Part shown: positions 7,780 through 36,862 of the stretch, piece by piece
Numbering within the stretch: the stretch's first letter is position 1
How the letters are laid out: each line of letters begins with the position of its first letter
Sequence record: MZ726796.1
Source: Escherichia phage vB_EcoS_ASO78B
Direction: 5' to 3' (one strand)
DNA length: 46,233 bases
The notes under the pieces: generated by a model
Databases searched by the model: none
The model's input: only the letters and a program-made list of their open reading frames with translations
What the model was told of the DNA's origin: nothing
Program-made: the position numbers and the translations under genes

Positions 7780-7811
7780 CTTCATCACCTCATTCGTCAC
7801 TTGATGTAGAT

Positions 7812-7840
7812 ACTATGCACCACCACTCAATCTACGTCAA
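7812..7840 (-). promoter_or_regulatory. sigma70-like promoter for accessory island 1
   Basis: minus strand reads TTGACG, 17-nt spacer, CATAGT; overlaps copies of the AATCTACRYCA motif. Confidence 0.4.
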
Positions 7841-7884: not shown

Positions 7885-8163
7885 ATGAAACTATCGCAAC
7901 GCGGCAAAGATACGCTTGGAATCGCCGATGCCGTGGATATATCGCCTTACATCACCACTGAGACAACGCAGAGTCAGTTTGATGCGATGACAAGTCTCGC
8001 CACCGACATTGGCATTGACGCTTTCCGCAAATCAACACTTCTGAGGAAACACAACCTTCGCTGCTTCTCGTGTGCGGTTGCACATTTCATCGTGTGGGGC
8101 GAGAAGACCGACAACAAAGCAAAACGCAAAGCTGAAAAAGAGGTTTACTGGTATGGCTATTAG
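7885..8163 (+). CDS. T4/P22-type (GH24) lysozyme-like protein lacking the catalytic N-terminal region
   Basis: residues 28-75 align to the C-terminal half of P22 gp19-type lysozymes (QxQ[FY]DA..SL...IG..AF..ST.LR..NL), but about 45 aa containing the catalytic region are missing; strong AGGAGG RBS. Confidence 0.5.
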   Translation: MKLSQRGKDTLGIADAVDISPYITTETTQSQFDAMTSLATDIGIDAFRKSTLLRKHNLRCFSCAVAHFIVWGEKTDNKAKRKAEKEVYWYGY

Positions 8164-8617
8164 CAAAAACATGAAGGCATTTCTGAATATGCTGGCGTAC
8201 AGTGAGGGCACGGATAACGGGCGGCAGAAAACCAATAATCATGGATATGATGTGATTGTTGGTGGCTCACTGTTTACCGACTATTCCGATCATCCGCGCA
8301 AGCTGATTAGCCTGCCTAAGCTGGGCATCAAATCCACTGCTGCAGGGCGCTATCAGGTGCTGGCTAAGTTTTATGACGCGTATAAAAAGCAGCTGCGCCT
8401 GCCTGACTTCTCTCCCGCATCACAGGACGCTATTGCAATGCAGCTAATCCGTGAATGCAAGGCCACTGCCGACATCGAGGCAGGGCGCATTGCTGATGCA
8501 ATCCATAAATGCCGCTCCCGCTGGGCTTCATTGCCGGGTGCTGGCTATGGTCAGCATGAGCAGAAGCTGGATAAGCTGATTCAGGTATACAAGGATGCTG
8601 GTGGGGCTGTGGCATGA
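8153..8617 (+). CDS. R: endolysin, lambda R-like lytic transglycosylase
   Basis: near-colinear match to lambda R: AFLNMLAYSEGTDNGRQKT.NHGYDVIVGG.LFTDYSDHPRKL, WASLPGAGYGQ.E. Confidence 0.9.
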   Translation: MAISKNMKAFLNMLAYSEGTDNGRQKTNNHGYDVIVGGSLFTDYSDHPRKLISLPKLGIKSTAAGRYQVLAKFYDAYKKQLRLPDFSPASQDAIAMQLIRECKATADIEAGRIADAIHKCRSRWASLPGAGYGQHEQKLDKLIQVYKDAGGAVA

Positions 8618-8853
8618 AAAAGTTAAGCAACTGGCTGCTCGGCGCGTGGATTTCGTTCTGTTCACTGCTGCAGCTATGGCCTGATGCAATGATGCATGTG
8701 TGGGTAATGATGCCGGATGACCTGAAAGCGGCGCTGCCTCCAATTGTGGTCAAGGGTGTGAGCTATTCAATCATGCTGGTTGGTATCCTCGGCAAGATGC
8801 ACGGCATGAGGAAGGAAAACCGGAGGCTGCGCAATAATGTCGATTCTCGCTAA
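8614..8853 (+). CDS. holin (putative, two TMDs)
   Basis: 79 aa, two hydrophobic segments and a basic C-tail; ATGA overlap with endolysin stop. Confidence 0.55.
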   Translation: MKKLSNWLLGAWISFCSLLQLWPDAMMHVWVMMPDDLKAALPPIVVKGVSYSIMLVGILGKMHGMRKENRRLRNNVDSR

Positions 8854-9325
8854 ATACTGGCGACCGTTGGCAATTATTATAATTGTTGTGCTCTGCGCGC
8901 TATGGGTGCGTGGCGAAATCATCAGCTACGGCGACCAGCGATACGCAGACGGATATGAAAAAGCCGTCGCAGACCAGAAGGCTGCAGACGAACAAGAGGA
9001 GCAACGACGCAATGCAGAACTGCAAAAGATTCAGGCCGACGCACGGCAAAGGATTGACGCTGCGCGCAATGATGCTGTCAATGCTGCTGCTAAGTCTGGC
9101 AGGTTGCAGCAACAACTCGCAAACATCCGCAAGCAGCTCGTCGGATATTCCACCACTGAGTCCATTGGCAACCCAGCCGCAGAAACCGGAGTTTTGCTCT
9201 CCGGCGTGCTCAGCAAATCTGTCGAAAGAAATCGACAACTGGCAGATTACGCTGACCGGGCAAGGGAAGCAGGACTAGCGTGTGAGGCGCAATACAATTC
9301 GCTGCGCAATAAAAAAGCCCCGTAA
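8837..9325 (+). CDS. i-spanin (Rz-like)
   Basis: N-terminal TMD LAIIIIVVLCALWV followed by a charged coiled-coil-like periplasmic domain; immediately downstream of endolysin and holin. Confidence 0.75.
   Translation: MSILAKYWRPLAIIIIVVLCALWVRGEIISYGDQRYADGYEKAVADQKAADEQEEQRRNAELQKIQADARQRIDAARNDAVNAAAKSGRLQQQLANIRKQLVGYSTTESIGNPAAETGVLLSGVLSKSVERNRQLADYADRAREAGLACEAQYNSLRNKKAP
9069..9278 (+). CDS. o-spanin (Rz1-like lipoprotein), nested in i-spanin +1 frame
   Basis: MMLSMLLLSLAGC lipobox then Pro/Ser-rich 69-aa product, entirely inside the Rz-like gene. Confidence 0.7.
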   Translation: MMLSMLLLSLAGCSNNSQTSASSSSDIPPLSPLATQPQKPEFCSPACSANLSKEIDNWQITLTGQGKQD

Positions 9326-9336
9326 TGGGGCTTGCG
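9315..9336. terminator. bidirectional terminator
   Basis: hairpin AAGCCCC-GTAAT-GGGGCTT with A-run upstream and T-rich downstream; separates convergent units. Confidence 0.6.
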
Positions 9337-9356
9337 TTTACATCCACGGGTCATGC

Positions 9357-9515
9357 TCACCGATTGGCATTTTCTCCACCCTCTCGCTTCTTCCACATCT
9401 GCTTTAGTTGAAAATAAGCATACGCTTCATCGCCATCTTTTGCATTGCGCTCCATTTGCTCGCACCATACCGATGGTTTTGGTGCCTCACTCTGCTGGCA
9501 ATGTTGTTGGCTCAT
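9357..9515 (-). CDS. small hypothetical protein
   Basis: 52 aa from ATG 9515 with GAGGAA RBS; Cys-containing. Confidence 0.3.
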   Translation of the reverse strand: MSQQHCQQSEAPKPSVWCEQMERNAKDGDEAYAYFQLKQMWKKREGGENANR

Positions 9516-9795
9516 CAACAGATTCCTCAACCGCAGCTTCAACGATGCGCACCAGTGAACACTCAAGGTTAGGTGCATTGTAATTGCCAGCCAGAAACAG
9601 CACGCTACCCGTGCTAATCAGCACCTGTTTCGCGCTTGCCTGCGACAGATTCTGCACGATGAATTGCGCTGTTTCGGTGCCAATTTTAAGCACTGCACTG
9701 CCGTCGCTGTTCAGTGATACCAGTTGCGCTGATGTGTCAGCAATGTTGGTGTAGTTCGTGTTTCGTTGCGCGATGGTCATGTCGCAGAATGACAT
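9487..9795 (-). CDS. hypothetical protein
   Basis: 102 aa from ATG 9795 (MSFCDMT..) with AGGAG RBS 7 nt upstream. Confidence 0.45.
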   Translation of the reverse strand: MSFCDMTIAQRNTNYTNIADTSAQLVSLNSDGSAVLKIGTETAQFIVQNLSQASAKQVLISTGSVLFLAGNYNAPNLECSLVRIVEAAVEESVDEPTTLPAE

Positions 9796-9796
9796 T

Positions 9797-10012
9797 TTAT
9801 GCTCCTGTAGTGATATGGATTTTGCCGTTTTCGCCATATGTTGCCGATTCGATTGTTGCAGTGATTGTGGATACTCCATCAAAAGATGCGCCGAGATTGA
9901 AGTTAACCACACCGGCAACCCTGCGCCCATCCTGATCGACAATCATACTTCTGCCGTTAATCTGCTCAATATGAAGATATACGGGTTCATCATTTTTCGG
10001 TGGCGACATCAT
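9797..10012 (-). CDS. hypothetical protein
   Basis: 71 aa; start overlaps upstream stop. Confidence 0.45.
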   Translation of the reverse strand: MMSPPKNDEPVYLHIEQINGRSMIVDQDGRRVAGVVNFNLGASFDGVSTITATIESATYGENGKIHITTGA

Positions 10013-10500
10013 TTAACCTCTCCATTCAGTTCTTTTACAATTAACGTTGCGTAGCCAGCAATATCTTTCCAGCTATCATCATAGTTTGGGTCGCCATTCA
10101 GGATGCGCCCAATCTTGTGCTGAATCATGTCGAGTGCCTCGTGTTGGCTTGGTGTCAGGTTGTGCCAGCCATCAACTTCGCGCATCACATCTTTCAGCTC
10201 CTGCATAATTTCAGCGCCATCTTTGAATTTGCCGTATCGACTACCGCGTTCGGTGATGAGCTGTTCCACCACATCTACTTCCTGCTCGCCAATGCAATCA
10301 TTGTGGTCTTGCTCGTCGGTAATTGGCTCGCGGCATGCAATAACAACATCCCCGCAACCCTCAATCACTTCAATGCGACCAGCATAATCTATGCTTAGAT
10401 AGAAAATCTCACCAGTACTTCCTGACTTAACTACAAGATAAGCCGTGTCATGGCCAGCAAAATCATCCTCACAGCCTTTCAGATATTTCCATTTTTTCAT
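10009..10500 (-). CDS. hypothetical protein with conserved phage C-terminal domain
   Basis: 163 aa; C-terminal RYGKF...W..L...QHEALDMI..KIGR...G....DSW.DIAGYA resembles an all-alpha phage domain (family not assigned). Confidence 0.5.
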   Translation of the reverse strand: MKKWKYLKGCEDDFAGHDTAYLVVKSGSTGEIFYLSIDYAGRIEVIEGCGDVVIACREPITDEQDHNDCIGEQEVDVVEQLITERGSRYGKFKDGAEIMQELKDVMREVDGWHNLTPSQHEALDMIQHKIGRILNGDPNYDDSWKDIAGYATLIVKELNGEVK

Positions 10501-10691
10501 TTCATCGTCACCCGGTTATTTTCATCAACATTAAAATTCTCACGAATCATCTGGTACATCTCATCTTTAGGCATATCAGCCAGTGCCACATAGCAACGGG
10601 CAAAGTAGCGAACATCACGGAGTGTCAGCGGCTGACGCTTCTCCACAATGCTGGTGATAATGTCCATCGGCTCTCGTCGTGGTCTTGGCAT
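10497..10691 (-). CDS. hypothetical protein
   Basis: 64 aa, first gene of the minus-strand island. Confidence 0.45.
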   Translation of the reverse strand: MPRPRREPMDIITSIVEKRQPLTLRDVRYFARCYVALADMPKDEMYQMIRENFNVDENNRVTMK

Positions 10692-10794
10692 ATTTACTAC
10701 TCCTTTCGAAATTTATTATTGACTAATCTACATCAAGTAGTCAATACTGTTTCTACACCAACGATTCTATCACAATGAGAGAGGTGATGTGGAA

Positions 10795-10992
10795 ATGAGA
10801 TACAAAGAAATAGCAGAGAGATACCAGAAAGAGGTGCGCGAGGTTATGGACATACTTAACGTTCGCGAAGATACCATTAAGTTTGTGGAAACTGCCATGT
10901 GTTCACTGGCGCTTGAAGCGGAGGTTGCAGGTCGTGAAAAGGCTGACGAACTTATATCTGCGGTGGTTTATAGTTCAACCAGTAACGGTTGA
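10795..10992 (+). CDS. hypothetical protein
   Basis: 65 aa from ATG 10795 after GAGAGAGG RBS. Confidence 0.4.
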   Translation: MRYKEIAERYQKEVREVMDILNVREDTIKFVETAMCSLALEAEVAGREKADELISAVVYSSTSNG

Positions 10993-11052
10993 GGATGAAG
11001 GTTATCTGTGCGTTGAGCACGTTGTTATTAAATTCTACGGGAGAAATTATAA

Positions 11053-11247
11053 ATGGCGCATGACGAACTGTACGAACAATCGCTAATCCAGCGACTTAAT
11101 GAAGTTGAGCGCACACGCGAATGGCTGGAATGCGAGCTGCGAGAAGTGCGCAATCGTCTGCAACGTAAGCGCAGTCAGCAGAAGGACGTCATCGACTGGT
11201 CGGGTGATACGCCTAAATTTAATAACTTAGGAGAATGGATAAAATGA
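11053..11247 (+). CDS. hypothetical protein
   Basis: 64 aa, coiled-coil-like; GGGAGA RBS. Confidence 0.45.
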   Translation: MAHDELYEQSLIQRLNEVERTREWLECELREVRNRLQRKRSQQKDVIDWSGDTPKFNNLGEWIK

Positions 11248-19146: not shown

Positions 19147-19175
19147 ACTATAAACGCCGCACCAATCTACGTCAA
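19147..19175 (-). promoter_or_regulatory. sigma70-like promoter for the ParB/clamp operon
   Basis: minus strand TTGACG, 17-nt spacer, TATAGT; overlaps two copies of the recurring motif. Confidence 0.45.
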
Positions 19176-36348: not shown

Positions 36349-36385
36349 TGTTAACCTCACTCATCATCACGTAAATGAATCTACA

Positions 36386-36862
36386 TCAATCTACATCGGA
36401 AAGCAAGCCAAAATAGAAAAGCGTGGCTTTTTTTAGTTGCTCAAGACCATAAGCGATAGCGGCGTAGTGACCGAGTCTGCACATCTCAGTTAGCACGGCA
36501 TACTGGTCTTTGCTCACTCTGCTCTTACTTTTGTCACGGCGCTTTGCCTCAATCATTCCACAACTGTGCTTCACTCCAGGCGTCATTATCACGTTGTCGC
36601 CTATTCCAGTCTTAACCCCCATCTTCTGGCGTTTCAGTACGAACTGGATGCGGCTGGACGTGCCTGTTTCATTCGGGACGTGAAACCAGAGCACGTCAGG
36701 GAATTGGCTTTGCATCCATGTGCCGTAACCCATCTGTTCAGTCTCCTCTTTCGGGCATTCCCCACGATAACCGCTATCAAATACCCATATACCGCTATCA
36801 AGCTGCTTCACTTTGTTCTCCTGCAAAATCTTTTCTGTGGATGATGTCGCGACCTTTATCAT
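36386..36862 (-). CDS. VRR-NUC domain nuclease
   Basis: GDNVIMTPG...GMIEAKRRD...SKDQYAVL pattern; start uncertain because the 5' end overlaps the helicase. Confidence 0.6.
   Translation of the reverse strand: MIKVATSSTEKILQENKVKQLDSGIWVFDSGYRGECPKEETEQMGYGTWMQSQFPDVLWFHVPNETGTSSRIQFVLKRQKMGVKTGIGDNVIMTPGVKHSCGMIEAKRRDKSKSRVSKDQYAVLTEMCRLGHYAAIAYGLEQLKKATLFYFGLLSDVD

What the first reader, a model, noticed from the sequence alone, without database searches (positions are those of the whole stretch)
9357..10691. Second strand-inverted island downstream of the spanins
Five minus-strand genes (64, 163, 71, 102 and 52 aa) are bounded by the bidirectional terminator at 9315-9336 and a divergent promoter region with motif copies at 10725-10760. 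The 163-aa protein has a well-conserved-looking C-terminal all-alpha domain (RYGKF..QHEALDMI..DSW.DIAGYA) that I cannot confidently name.
Basis: inference. Interest (0 to 1): 0.5.

Follow-up and report, generated by a model that had tools for sequence, protein, structure and literature searches.

The report
Small accessory operon with DUF6378 protein
This is a real but ordinary five-gene accessory operon of a Skatevirus-type coliphage; its 163-residue protein carries a widespread phage helical domain of unknown function (DUF6378), and deleting that gene in a close relative still gives viable phage.

Summary
Five tightly packed minus-strand genes (64, 163, 71, 102 and 52 aa) run from a conserved back-to-back promoter region (10715-10748) to an intrinsic terminator hairpin (9315-9333). 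The window is Escherichia phage vB_EcoS_ASO78B, a Skatevirus-like siphophage.

The conserved core is a translationally coupled pair. The first gene encodes a basic 64-aa protein with predicted winged-helix topology. The second encodes the 163-aa protein, which has a fast-evolving N-terminal alpha/beta domain and a near-invariant C-terminal four-helix domain. That domain is Pfam DUF6378.

Published genome-reduced mutants of Skatevirus seszw lack the DUF6378 gene in about two thirds of roughly 70 sequenced genomes. Every sampled genome keeps the 64-aa gene. The 71, 102 and 52-aa genes are variable cargo.

This is a catalogued family of unknown function. Interest is low to moderate.

The parts
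9315..9333 (-). Intrinsic terminator hairpin (AAGCCCC-ATTAC-GGGGCTT) followed by TTTTTTATT on the minus strand. It ends the leftward operon 24 nt after the last gene. The Rz stop codon (9323-9325) lies in its loop. On the plus strand the tail is a weak U-tract.
9357..9515 (-). 52-aa gene (phrog_1312, unknown function). Variable cargo, present in 9 of 26 relatives.
9487..9795 (-). 102-aa acidic protein (phrog_16624, unknown function). Present in 11 of 26 relatives. Its seszw homologue (gene 81) is deleted in several viable mutants.
9797..10012 (-). 71-aa gene (phrog_38236, unknown function). Present in 9 of 26 relatives and absent from Bas81 and seszw.
10009..10500 (-). 163-aa two-domain protein (phrog_17775), 100% identical to the hypothetical protein ASO78B_023.
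10021..10275 (-). C-terminal DUF6378 four-helix domain (residues about 76-160). Near-invariant residues are R85, Y89, G90, F92, K103, E121, H128, K129, R132, N135, G136, D142, W144, D146, G149 and Y150.
10321..10500 (-). N-terminal small alpha/beta domain (residues 1-60), specific to the Skate/Rouf phage group. It is 32-95% identical among relatives or missing. It is followed by an acidic disordered linker (residues 61-75, 10276-10320).
10497..10691 (-). 64-aa basic protein (pI 9.0) with predicted winged-helix topology (H-S-H-H-S-S). It is the first gene of the operon, has a strong Shine-Dalgarno sequence and is translationally coupled to the 163-aa gene. Present in 25 of 26 relatives and in every sampled seszw mutant.
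10715..10744 (-). Leftward sigma-70-type promoter (TTGACT, 18-nt spacer, AATAAT; 10 of 12 matches) that drives the island.
10719..10748 (+). Rightward sigma-70-type promoter (TTGACT, 18-nt spacer, AATACT) overlapping the leftward one back to back. The two -35 boxes form the inverted repeat TTGACTA-N12-TAGTCAA.
10726..10736 (-). Copy of the phage-wide motif TTGAYGTAGAT, in the spacer of the leftward promoter.

Best explanation
The region is a genuine leftward operon of Escherichia phage vB_EcoS_ASO78B, a Skatevirus-like phage. It is read by host RNA polymerase from one arm of a conserved back-to-back promoter and ends at an intrinsic terminator that overlaps the end of the Rz spanin gene.

Its conserved core is a coupled gene pair. 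The first gene encodes a basic 64-aa protein with predicted winged-helix topology. This is probably a DNA-binding regulator, possibly acting on the promoter and motif region (inferred). The second encodes the 163-aa protein. The 71, 102 and 52-aa genes are interchangeable cargo of unknown function.

The 163-aa protein is a DUF6378-family protein. A fast-evolving, lineage-specific N-terminal alpha/beta domain is joined by an acidic linker to a near-invariant four-helix bundle. That bundle is a widespread, modular phage domain. It occurs alone, in tandem, or behind many different N-terminal domains. It lives mostly in replication and recombination modules, and sometimes directly beside nucleotide-pool enzymes.

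Most likely mechanism (inference, about 35%): the bundle acts as a dimer. It uses its invariant basic/acidic face (R85, K129, R132, D142, D146) to bind, and perhaps hydrolyse, a nucleotide or a nucleotide- or DNA-metabolism partner. The variable N-domain adapts it to the host.

It is not a detectable MazG-type enzyme, and it is dispensable for growth in the laboratory.
For: - Gene structure, coupling, promoter and terminator.
- Phage identity: (100% identity, contig of 46,233 bp); relatives.
- The promoter and inverted repeat are conserved even in the Klebsiella Rouf-like phages, where the 64-aa protein is only 54% identical.
- The 64-aa gene and the DUF6378 gene are adjacent in 25 of 26 relatives. 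The C-domain is 79-93% identical; the N-domain is 32-95% identical or absent.
- Family assignment: Pfam DUF6378 above cut-off; 143 of 148 homologues hit it.
- Structure: AlphaFold2 pLDDT 88, with four helices at 73-158. The viral-structure (BFVD) matches are DUF6378 or uncharacterised proteins, down to E = 1e-11.
- Architectures among 150 representatives: 69 standalone, 67 with an N-terminal extension, 9 with a C-terminal extension, and tandem duplicates.
- Gene context: TS-like hydroxymethylase, NTP-PPase, DUF6378, dCMP deaminase; MazG-like, DUF6378, TS-like, dCMP deaminase; PurZ, MazZ-like, DatZ, VRR-NUC-like, DUF6378 in two phages.
- Census of 51 non-redundant loci: SNF2 helicase, PolA, Cas4-like nuclease, Sak4-like ATPase and SSB are common; a MazG-like gene occurs in 7.
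- Dispensability: the seszw homologue (gene 1) is cleanly deleted in about 49 of 70 GenBank seszw genomes, including the 35,993-bp mutant. The 64-aa gene was intact in 28 of 28 sampled. PMC9825161 classes genes absent from isolated mutants as non-essential.
- 64-aa protein: winged-helix-like secondary structure and pI 9.0.
Against: - No biochemical function is known for any DUF6378 protein. Only three papers in the library mention the domain, all as an annotation.
- Nucleotide-enzyme neighbours occur in only about 8 of 51 loci, and none is present in this phage.
- E121 and H128 are replaced in distant members (Acinetobacter and Vibrio phage proteins). Part of the conserved set may therefore be structural salt bridges and aromatic core rather than an active site.
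- The winged-helix reading of the 64-aa protein rests on predicted secondary structure alone. Fold searches were exhausted, and the Pfam DpnI hit at E = 0.057 is below threshold.
- That the 64-aa gene was kept in the mutants does not prove it is essential.
Confidence: 0.55

Rival explanations
1. The C-terminal domain is a MazG-like all-alpha NTP pyrophosphohydrolase that cleans or reshapes the dNTP pool. This is the enzyme class implied by the reader's 'nucleotide hydrolysis assay'.
For: - It is a small four-helix domain, and tandem-duplicated forms exist, as in MazG.
- It has E121-x-x-[ED]124 and D142-x-x-x-D146 motifs that loosely recall EXXE...EXXD.
- It lies next to nucleotide-pool genes in several phages.
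Against: - No MazG, PRA-PH or dUTPase_2 Pfam hit in 148 members, even at E<=10.
- hhalign probability is below 1% against three MazG-like neighbour proteins and against a seven-sequence MazG-like profile.
- The same genomes already carry a separate MazG-like gene right beside it, so it is not a replacement.
- E121 is not conserved in distant members.
Confidence: 0.1
2. The protein is an anti-defence or host-takeover factor. The invariant C-domain engages a conserved target, or sequesters a nucleotide immune signal. The rapidly changing N-domain tracks a variable host factor in an arms race.
For: - The N-domain is 32-95% identical or swapped while the C-domain stays 79-93% identical.
- The protein is acidic (pI 4.6).
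- It is non-essential in the laboratory host.
- It sits in an accessory island that shares a divergent promoter with the cluster holding a Lar-like anti-restriction gene.
- It is a small helical protein that may oligomerise.
Against: - No PADLOC hit, and no match to solved anti-defence proteins.
- In most other phages the domain sits inside replication modules rather than host-takeover islands.
- Skatevirus phages are reported as markedly sensitive to restriction-modification and Old systems (PMC11990801).
Confidence: 0.2
3. The 64-aa and 163-aa proteins form a regulatory pair. The winged-helix protein binds the promoter or motif DNA, and the DUF6378 protein modulates it or RNA polymerase, timing the early-to-late switch.
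For: - The two genes are translationally coupled and always adjacent.
- They lie next to a conserved inverted repeat and a genome-wide motif.
- The 64-aa protein has predicted winged-helix topology and a basic pI.
Against: - DUF6378 occurs in hundreds of other phages without any homologue of the 64-aa protein.
- The DUF6378 gene can be deleted while the 64-aa gene is kept.
- No DNA-binding features are seen in the acidic DUF6378 domain.
Confidence: 0.1
4. The protein is structural or lysis-associated, because it lies between the lysis cassette and head genes.
For: Position only: it lies downstream of the spanins and upstream of head genes.
Against: - It is on the opposite strand, with its own sigma-70-type promoter and terminator.
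- It is deleted in viable seszw mutants.
- Homologues elsewhere lie in replication modules.
- No structural PHROG or Pfam hit.
Confidence: 0.03

Closest known systems
Pfam PF19905 (DUF6378), as found in standalone proteins such as Brucella phage Pr gp47 and Mannheimia phage 587AP1 gp46
   Same: The HMM match is above the curated cut-off. It has the same ~80-residue all-alpha domain and the same motif set: R-x-x-x-Y-G-x-F, K-I-G-R-I-L-N-G-D-P and D-S-W-x-D-I-x-G-Y.
   Different: Here the domain is fused to a Skate/Rouf-specific N-terminal alpha/beta domain and paired with a 64-aa winged-helix-like gene. It sits in an accessory island rather than in the replication module. It scores lower against the Pfam model (28 bits) than distant members do (42-50 bits), so it is a divergent subfamily.
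Unnamed 'YDVL-AW-NPALQHLIKKAL' family of 64-115-aa enterobacterial phage and prophage proteins (491 proteins, no Pfam domain)
   Same: Profile-profile probability is 95-96% (E = 1e-8) against the DUF6378 profile. It can replace DUF6378 behind the same N-terminal domain and the same 'DLNDCIGAPE' linker (P0216, P0232, P0247).
   Different: It is shorter and lacks most of helices 2-3. It is not detectable as DUF6378 by HMMER. Its function is equally unknown.
MazG-like all-alpha NTP pyrophosphohydrolases (MazG, HisE/PRA-PH, phage MazZ)
   Same: Both are small helical-bundle proteins that exist as single and tandem domains. Both are found in the same nucleotide-metabolism gene clusters.
   Different: No similarity in sequence, profile or fold was detected. 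They are encoded side by side as separate genes.
Nucleotide modification associated domain 1 (NMAD1 / Pfam DUF1599)
   Same: One viral protein 43% identical to this domain carries that name in UniProt/BFVD. From memory, NMAD1 is also a small helical domain found near nucleotide-modifying enzymes.
   Different: No PF07659 hit for any of about 160 family members scanned. I could not obtain DUF1599 sequences to run a profile-profile test, so this is a lead and not a result.

Membership tests
Pfam DUF6378 (PF19905) | Match to the family HMM above the curated gathering score | tested here: met
   28.2 bits against a cut-off of 27.1, residues 79-154. 143 of 148 homologues hit the model.
Pfam DUF6378 (PF19905) | All-alpha domain of about 80 residues with the family's conserved motifs | tested here: met
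   The AlphaFold2 model has four helices at 73-158 with pLDDT 96-98. Near-invariant residues are listed. Foldseek matches BFVD models labelled DUF6378.
MazG-like all-alpha NTP pyrophosphohydrolase | Sequence or profile similarity to MazG, PRA-PH or dUTPase_2 families | tested here: not met
   No such Pfam hit at E<=10 in 148 + 9 members. hhalign probability is 0.1-0.3% against MazG-like neighbour proteins and a seven-sequence profile.
MazG-like all-alpha NTP pyrophosphohydrolase | Fold similarity to solved MazG-type structures | tested here: not met
MazG-like all-alpha NTP pyrophosphohydrolase | EEXXE...EXXD metal-binding glutamate/aspartate motifs conserved across the family | tested here: inconclusive
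   E121-x-x-[ED]124 and D142-x-x-x-D146 are present in close members. E121 is replaced in distant members (Acinetobacter phage protein), and the spacing differs from EXXD.
MazG-like all-alpha NTP pyrophosphohydrolase | Mg2+-dependent hydrolysis of (d)NTP to (d)NMP + PPi | not testable with these tools
   Needs a biochemical assay.
NMAD1 / DUF1599 (PF07659) | Match to the family HMM or profile | tested here: not met
   No PF07659 hit in any scanned member at E<=10. The only link is a UniProt name on a 43%-identical BFVD entry. A profile-profile test was not possible.
Phosphofructokinase (label of phrog_474 and phrog_1167) | PfkA- or PfkB-type kinase domain | tested here: not met
   Only the DUF6378 part of phrog_474 is matched (profile positions 138-214). 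No kinase Pfam domain was found in this protein or in 148 homologues. The label appears to be a propagated annotation.
Winged-helix DNA-binding proteins (64-aa gene product) | H1-S1-H2-H3-S2-S3 topology | tested here: met
   AlphaFold2 model, pLDDT 80: H8-19, E22-23, H24-34, H42-52, E53-55, E60-63.
Winged-helix DNA-binding proteins (64-aa gene product) | Significant match to a known winged-helix family or structure | tested here: not met
   The best Pfam hit is the DpnI C-terminal region at E = 0.057, 13.5 bits against a cut-off of 26.7. The PDB profile search gave nothing below E = 0.36.
Intrinsic (rho-independent) terminator | GC-rich hairpin immediately followed by a U-tract | tested here: met
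   On the minus-strand RNA: GCCCC-AUUAC-GGGGC followed by UUUUUUAUU, dG -14.6 kcal/mol. On the plus strand the tail is UUGCGUUUAC, so bidirectional action is doubtful.
Sigma-70-type promoter | -35 and -10 hexamers with 16-18-nt spacing, conserved in relatives | tested here: met
   TTGACT, 18-nt spacer, AATAAT (10 of 12 matches) leftward; TTGACT, 18-nt spacer, AATACT (9 of 12) rightward. The core is conserved in 17 relatives, although the leftward -10 is weaker in many. Transcription starts were not mapped.

The most novel reading that the evidence does not exclude
DUF6378 could be a previously unrecognised class of small all-alpha nucleotide-acting or nucleotide-sensing module, distinct from MazG, that phages deploy beside their dNTP-pool enzymes. 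In Skate/Rouf phages it would be coupled to a rapidly diversifying N-terminal adaptor, making a host-specific counter-measure. One example would be action against dNTP-depleting or nucleotide-signalling immunity. A second family, which Pfam does not cover, would serve as an interchangeable alternative head on the same adaptor.
Probability: 0.15. Interest if true: 0.7.

Novelty: already known. Interest (0 to 1): 0.3.

Why it matters
The island itself is an ordinary accessory operon of a sequenced phage. Its main protein belongs to a catalogued domain family.

The value lies in the domain. DUF6378 is very common, with about 6,500 clusters at 50% identity. It is unusually well conserved for a phage protein and has no known function. 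It recurs beside enzymes that rewrite the nucleotide pool, including aminoadenine (Z-genome) and hydroxymethyl-pyrimidine clusters.

This work narrows the options. The domain is not MazG-like. It is modular, possibly dimeric, and dispensable in the laboratory. The work also points to a tractable system for finding its function: seszw deletion mutants already exist, and natural N-domain swaps are available.

Tried and rejected
- **Phosphofructokinase (PHROG label).** No kinase domain is present; the label looks like annotation carry-over.
- **DUF3310/SaV-like identity of the alternative C-domain.** This was my own recollection. It is not supported: there are no Pfam hits, and all 120 listed homologues carry no Pfam domain.
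- **NMAD1/DUF1599.** There is only a name on one BFVD entry. No HMM hit was found, and I could not get sequences for a profile test. The Iyer et al. 2013 paper is not in the library.
- **PDB matches.** Sequence and profile searches of the PDB found nothing for the 163-aa or 64-aa proteins. The weak hit of the 64-aa protein to a HisIE PRA-PH helix (E = 0.36) was not confirmed by hhalign and is treated as chance.
- **AFDB50 fold search.** This library was unavailable.
- **Metagenome contigs.** The contigs encoding two representatives were too short to show context.
- **Cluster names.** Source names for ten representative clusters gave nothing.
- **Homologues of the other island parts.** No homologues of the 64, 71, 102 or 52-aa proteins, or of the N-domain, were found in 63 diverse DUF6378 loci.
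- **Other negatives.** No PADLOC or NCBIfam hits. No Rfam family in 9000-11200. No meaningful repeats beyond the promoter inverted repeat and the motif.
- **Supplementary tables.** The tables of PMC9825161 are not in the library, so I read gene status from the deposited mutant genomes instead.
Full report
**Identity of the window.** The 163-aa product is 100% identical to 'hypothetical protein ASO78B_023' of Escherichia phage vB_EcoS_ASO78B, on a contig of exactly 46,233 bp. Nucleotide relatives at 83-92% identity are Salmonella, Escherichia and Shigella siphophages of the Skatevirus cluster: Akira, 64795_sal3, BS5, LPST10, swi2, Bas81, Skate and seszw. Klebsiella Roufvirus-like phages are more distant. 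PMC11990801 describes the cluster as small O-antigen-dependent siphoviruses that are sensitive to restriction-modification and Old systems.

**Check of the observation.** The five minus-strand ORFs are exactly as described:
- 64 aa at 10497-10691
- 163 aa at 10009-10500
- 71 aa at 9797-10012
- 102 aa at 9487-9795
- 52 aa at 9357-9515

They are packed like an operon. The 64/163 and 163/71 junctions are ATGA overlaps. The 71/102 junction has a 1-nt gap, and 102/52 overlap by 29 nt. The first gene has a strong AAAGGAG ribosome-binding site. Each product matches a PHROG family of unknown function, with E-values from 1e-13 to 1e-96. The same genes are annotated in Bas81, Akira and seszw. No Rfam family lies in 9000-11200.

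**Terminator.** The hairpin AAGCCCC-ATTAC-GGGGCTT lies at 9315-9333, 24 nt past the last gene. The Rz stop codon is in its loop. On the minus-strand RNA the hairpin is followed by UUUUUUAUU, a textbook intrinsic terminator. On the plus strand the tail is UUGCGUUUAC. 'Bidirectional' is therefore only half supported.

**Promoter region.** The leftward promoter is TTGACT, an 18-nt spacer, then AATAAT (10744 to 10715; 10 of 12 consensus matches). The rightward promoter is TTGACT, an 18-nt spacer, then AATACT (10719-10748). The two overlap back to back, and their -35 boxes form the unique inverted repeat TTGACTA-N12-TAGTCAA. The core AGTATTGACTAAnTGAyGTAGAtnnGTCAA is conserved in 17 relatives. These include Klebsiella phages whose 64-aa protein is only 54% identical.

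TTGAYGTAGAT occurs 14 times with at most one mismatch, against 1.7 expected. There are exact copies at 7801, 7830, 10726, 19165 and 36379, mostly in divergent or intergenic regions.

**Conserved and variable parts.** I compared 26 relatives by tblastn.
- The 64-aa gene is present in 25.
- The DUF6378 C-domain is present in all 26, always immediately downstream of the 64-aa gene.
- The 71, 102 and 52-aa genes are present in only 9, 11 and 9.

Within the 163-aa protein the C-domain stays 79-93% identical. The N-domain ranges from 95% down to 32%, is replaced by other cores, or is missing altogether (a 100-aa standalone form in L036). The operon is therefore a conserved pair plus interchangeable cargo.

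**The 163-aa protein.** The AlphaFold2 model, built with 148 sequences, has mean pLDDT 88. It shows:
- a small alpha/beta N-domain (residues 1-60)
- a disordered acidic linker (63-71)
- a four-helix C-domain (helices at 73-89, 92-107, 117-135 and 141-158, plus a short helix at 110-114), with pLDDT 96-98

Pfam places residues 79-154 in DUF6378, at 28.2 bits against a cut-off of 27.1. 143 of 148 homologues hit the same model.

The exhaustive search found 6,553 cluster representatives at E<=1e-3. Identity over residues 78-163 is 50-70% in proteins that are otherwise unrelated. Among the best 150, 69 are standalone domains, 67 have N-terminal extensions, 9 have C-terminal extensions, and a few are tandem duplicates. 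The tandem forms hint at a dimeric working unit.

Near-invariant residues among close members are R85, G86, Y89, G90, F92, K103, W112, E121, H128, K129, R132, N135, G136, P138, Y140, D142, W144, D146, G149 and Y150. In distant members E121 and H128 are replaced. The Y-G-x-F turn, K129/R132 and D142/W144/D146/G149/Y150 persist. The domain is mildly acidic (median pI 5.4), and the whole protein has pI 4.6. That argues against direct DNA binding.

The same N-domain and its 'DLNDCIGAPE' linker are also found fused to a different, shorter C-terminal module. That module has the motif YDVL-AW-NPALQHLIKKAL and belongs to a family of 491 proteins with no Pfam domain. It is related to DUF6378 at 95-96% hhalign probability.

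**Tests against known families.**
- *MazG-like NTP pyrophosphatases*, the obvious candidates for an all-alpha nucleotide hydrolase. They are not supported. There are no Pfam hits even at E<=10. hhalign probability is below 1% against MazG-like proteins encoded next to DUF6378 genes and against a seven-sequence profile of them. Those genomes carry both genes side by side.
- *Phosphofructokinase*, the label of phrog_474. It has no basis in domain content.
- *NMAD1.* Foldseek against viral models found 21 matches at E<=1e-3. All are DUF6378 or uncharacterised proteins. One 43%-identical entry is named 'Nucleotide modification associated domain 1'. Weak matches (E = 0.01-0.2) go to HAD/PNKP-phosphatase fusion proteins. 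I could not test the NMAD1 link, so it remains a lead.

**Gene context elsewhere.** Several clusters tie the domain to nucleotide metabolism.
- In a Manatee Spring podovirus the order is DNA polymerase, thymidylate-synthase-like hydroxymethylase, NTP-PPase, DUF6378, dCMP deaminase.
- In Achromobacter phage SE2 it is MazG-like, DUF6378, TS-like, dCMP deaminase.
- In Vibrio phage J2 and Burkholderia phage Bm1 it is PurZ, a small MazZ-like protein, DatZ, a VRR-NUC-like protein, DUF6378. This is the aminoadenine (Z-genome) cluster. The same genes recur in an IMG/VR contig.
- In Brucella phage Pr and a Mannheimia P2-like phage it sits among helicase, nuclease, SSB and replication genes.
- PMC13432834 lists it next to ThyX in a Faecalibacterium phage.

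I also ran an unbiased census of 51 non-redundant loci. The most frequent neighbours were SNF2 helicase, PolA, Cas4-like nuclease, Sak4-like ATPase, SSB, RusA and NinB-like genes. MazG-like genes appeared in 7 loci, TS-like plus dCMP deaminase in 3, and PurZ plus DatZ in 3. The general association is with DNA replication and recombination. A recurrent minority links directly to nucleotide-pool enzymes. This phage has no such enzymes of its own.

**Knockout evidence.** PMC9825161 applied iterative CRISPR genome reduction to Skatevirus seszw and deposited about 70 genomes.
- seszw gene 1 is the homologue of the 163-aa protein (N-domain 71% and C-domain 93% identical).
- Gene 2 is the 64-aa homologue.
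- Gene 81 is the 102-aa homologue.

About 21 of the 70 genomes keep gene 1. In the rest only 2 x 44 bp remain, including in the 35,993-bp and 36,655-bp mutants. Gene 81 is also deleted in several. Gene 2 was intact in all 28 sampled genomes. The paper classes genes absent from isolated mutants as non-essential. These mutants descend from shared lineages, so the counts are not independent events, but viability is clear.

**The 64-aa protein.** It is basic (pI 9.0). AlphaFold2 predicts the canonical winged-helix order H-S-H-H-S-S at pLDDT 80. It has a sub-threshold match to the DpnI winged-helix region. Its position beside the conserved inverted repeat and its retention in all sampled mutants make a DNA-binding regulator plausible. 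This is inference only.

**Conclusion.** The finding is real and correctly drawn, but it is an ordinary accessory operon. Its notable protein is a member of a catalogued domain family of unknown function. It is not a detectable MazG-type enzyme, and it is dispensable in the laboratory. The most likely role is an accessory one in nucleotide or DNA metabolism, carried out by a dimeric helical bundle with a host-adapted N-terminal adaptor. An anti-defence role is a credible rival.

Noticed in passing
window 7801-7811(+), 7830-7840(-), 10726-10736(-), 19165-19175(-), 36379-36389(-), plus 9 one-mismatch copies: The 11-mer TTGAYGTAGAT occurs 14 times against 1.7 expected. Most copies lie in divergent or intergenic regions, and the motif is conserved in relatives. 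It is probably a phage-wide operator or promoter element. What binds it is unknown; the 64-aa winged-helix-like protein is one candidate.
   Followed up: partly
P0216, P0232, P0247, P0273-P0392; window 10276-10320 (linker): The N-domain and the 'DLNDCIGAPE' linker of the 163-aa protein are also found joined to a different short helical module (YDVL-AW-NPALQHLIKKAL). That module belongs to a family of 491 proteins with no Pfam domain and is remotely related to DUF6378 (hhalign 95-96%). The linker looks like a module-exchange junction.
   Followed up: partly
L095-L098 (Salmonella phage seszw and mutants), genes 2 and 3: The 64-aa homologue (gene 2) is intact in all 28 sampled genome-reduced seszw genomes. 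In the two smallest mutants I inspected (35,993 and 36,655 bp), gene 2 and the first rightward gene (gene 3) are both kept, while their neighbours are deleted. The two genes flanking the divergent promoter may be essential or quasi-essential.
   Followed up: partly
L009 1481-4267 (Vibrio phage J2), L010 1050-4139 (Burkholderia phage Bm1), L057: The gene order PurZ, small MazZ-like protein, DatZ (HD), VRR-NUC-like protein of about 145 aa, DUF6378 is conserved in unrelated aminoadenine (Z-genome) phages. The ~145-aa protein is annotated 'DNA helicase' or 'type III restriction endonuclease' but carries a PD-(D/E)xK-type motif.
   Followed up: partly
phrog_474, phrog_1167; L010 3453-4139: These PHROG families, and a GenBank product, are labelled 'phosphofructokinase' although the matched region is only the DUF6378 domain. 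No kinase domain is detectable, so this is probably a propagated mis-annotation.
   Followed up: yes
window 8837-9325 and 8883-9278: The Rz-like spanin gene contains an embedded out-of-frame ORF with a lipoprotein-like signal (…LLLSLAGCSNN…), consistent with an Rz1 o-spanin. The Rz stop codon lies in the loop of the terminator hairpin.
   Followed up: no
window 7885-8163 and 8072-8617: A 92-aa ORF overlaps the start of the endolysin ORF. Akira annotates two adjacent 'endolysin' CDS here, while Bas81 annotates one. The true start or arrangement of the endolysin gene is unclear.
   Followed up: no
window 10500-10691 (64-aa protein), residues 23-54: The best PDB sequence match (E = 0.36) is to the helix carrying the metal-binding motif of the HisIE PRA-PH (MazG-superfamily) domain. 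hhalign did not confirm it, so it is probably chance.
   Followed up: yes
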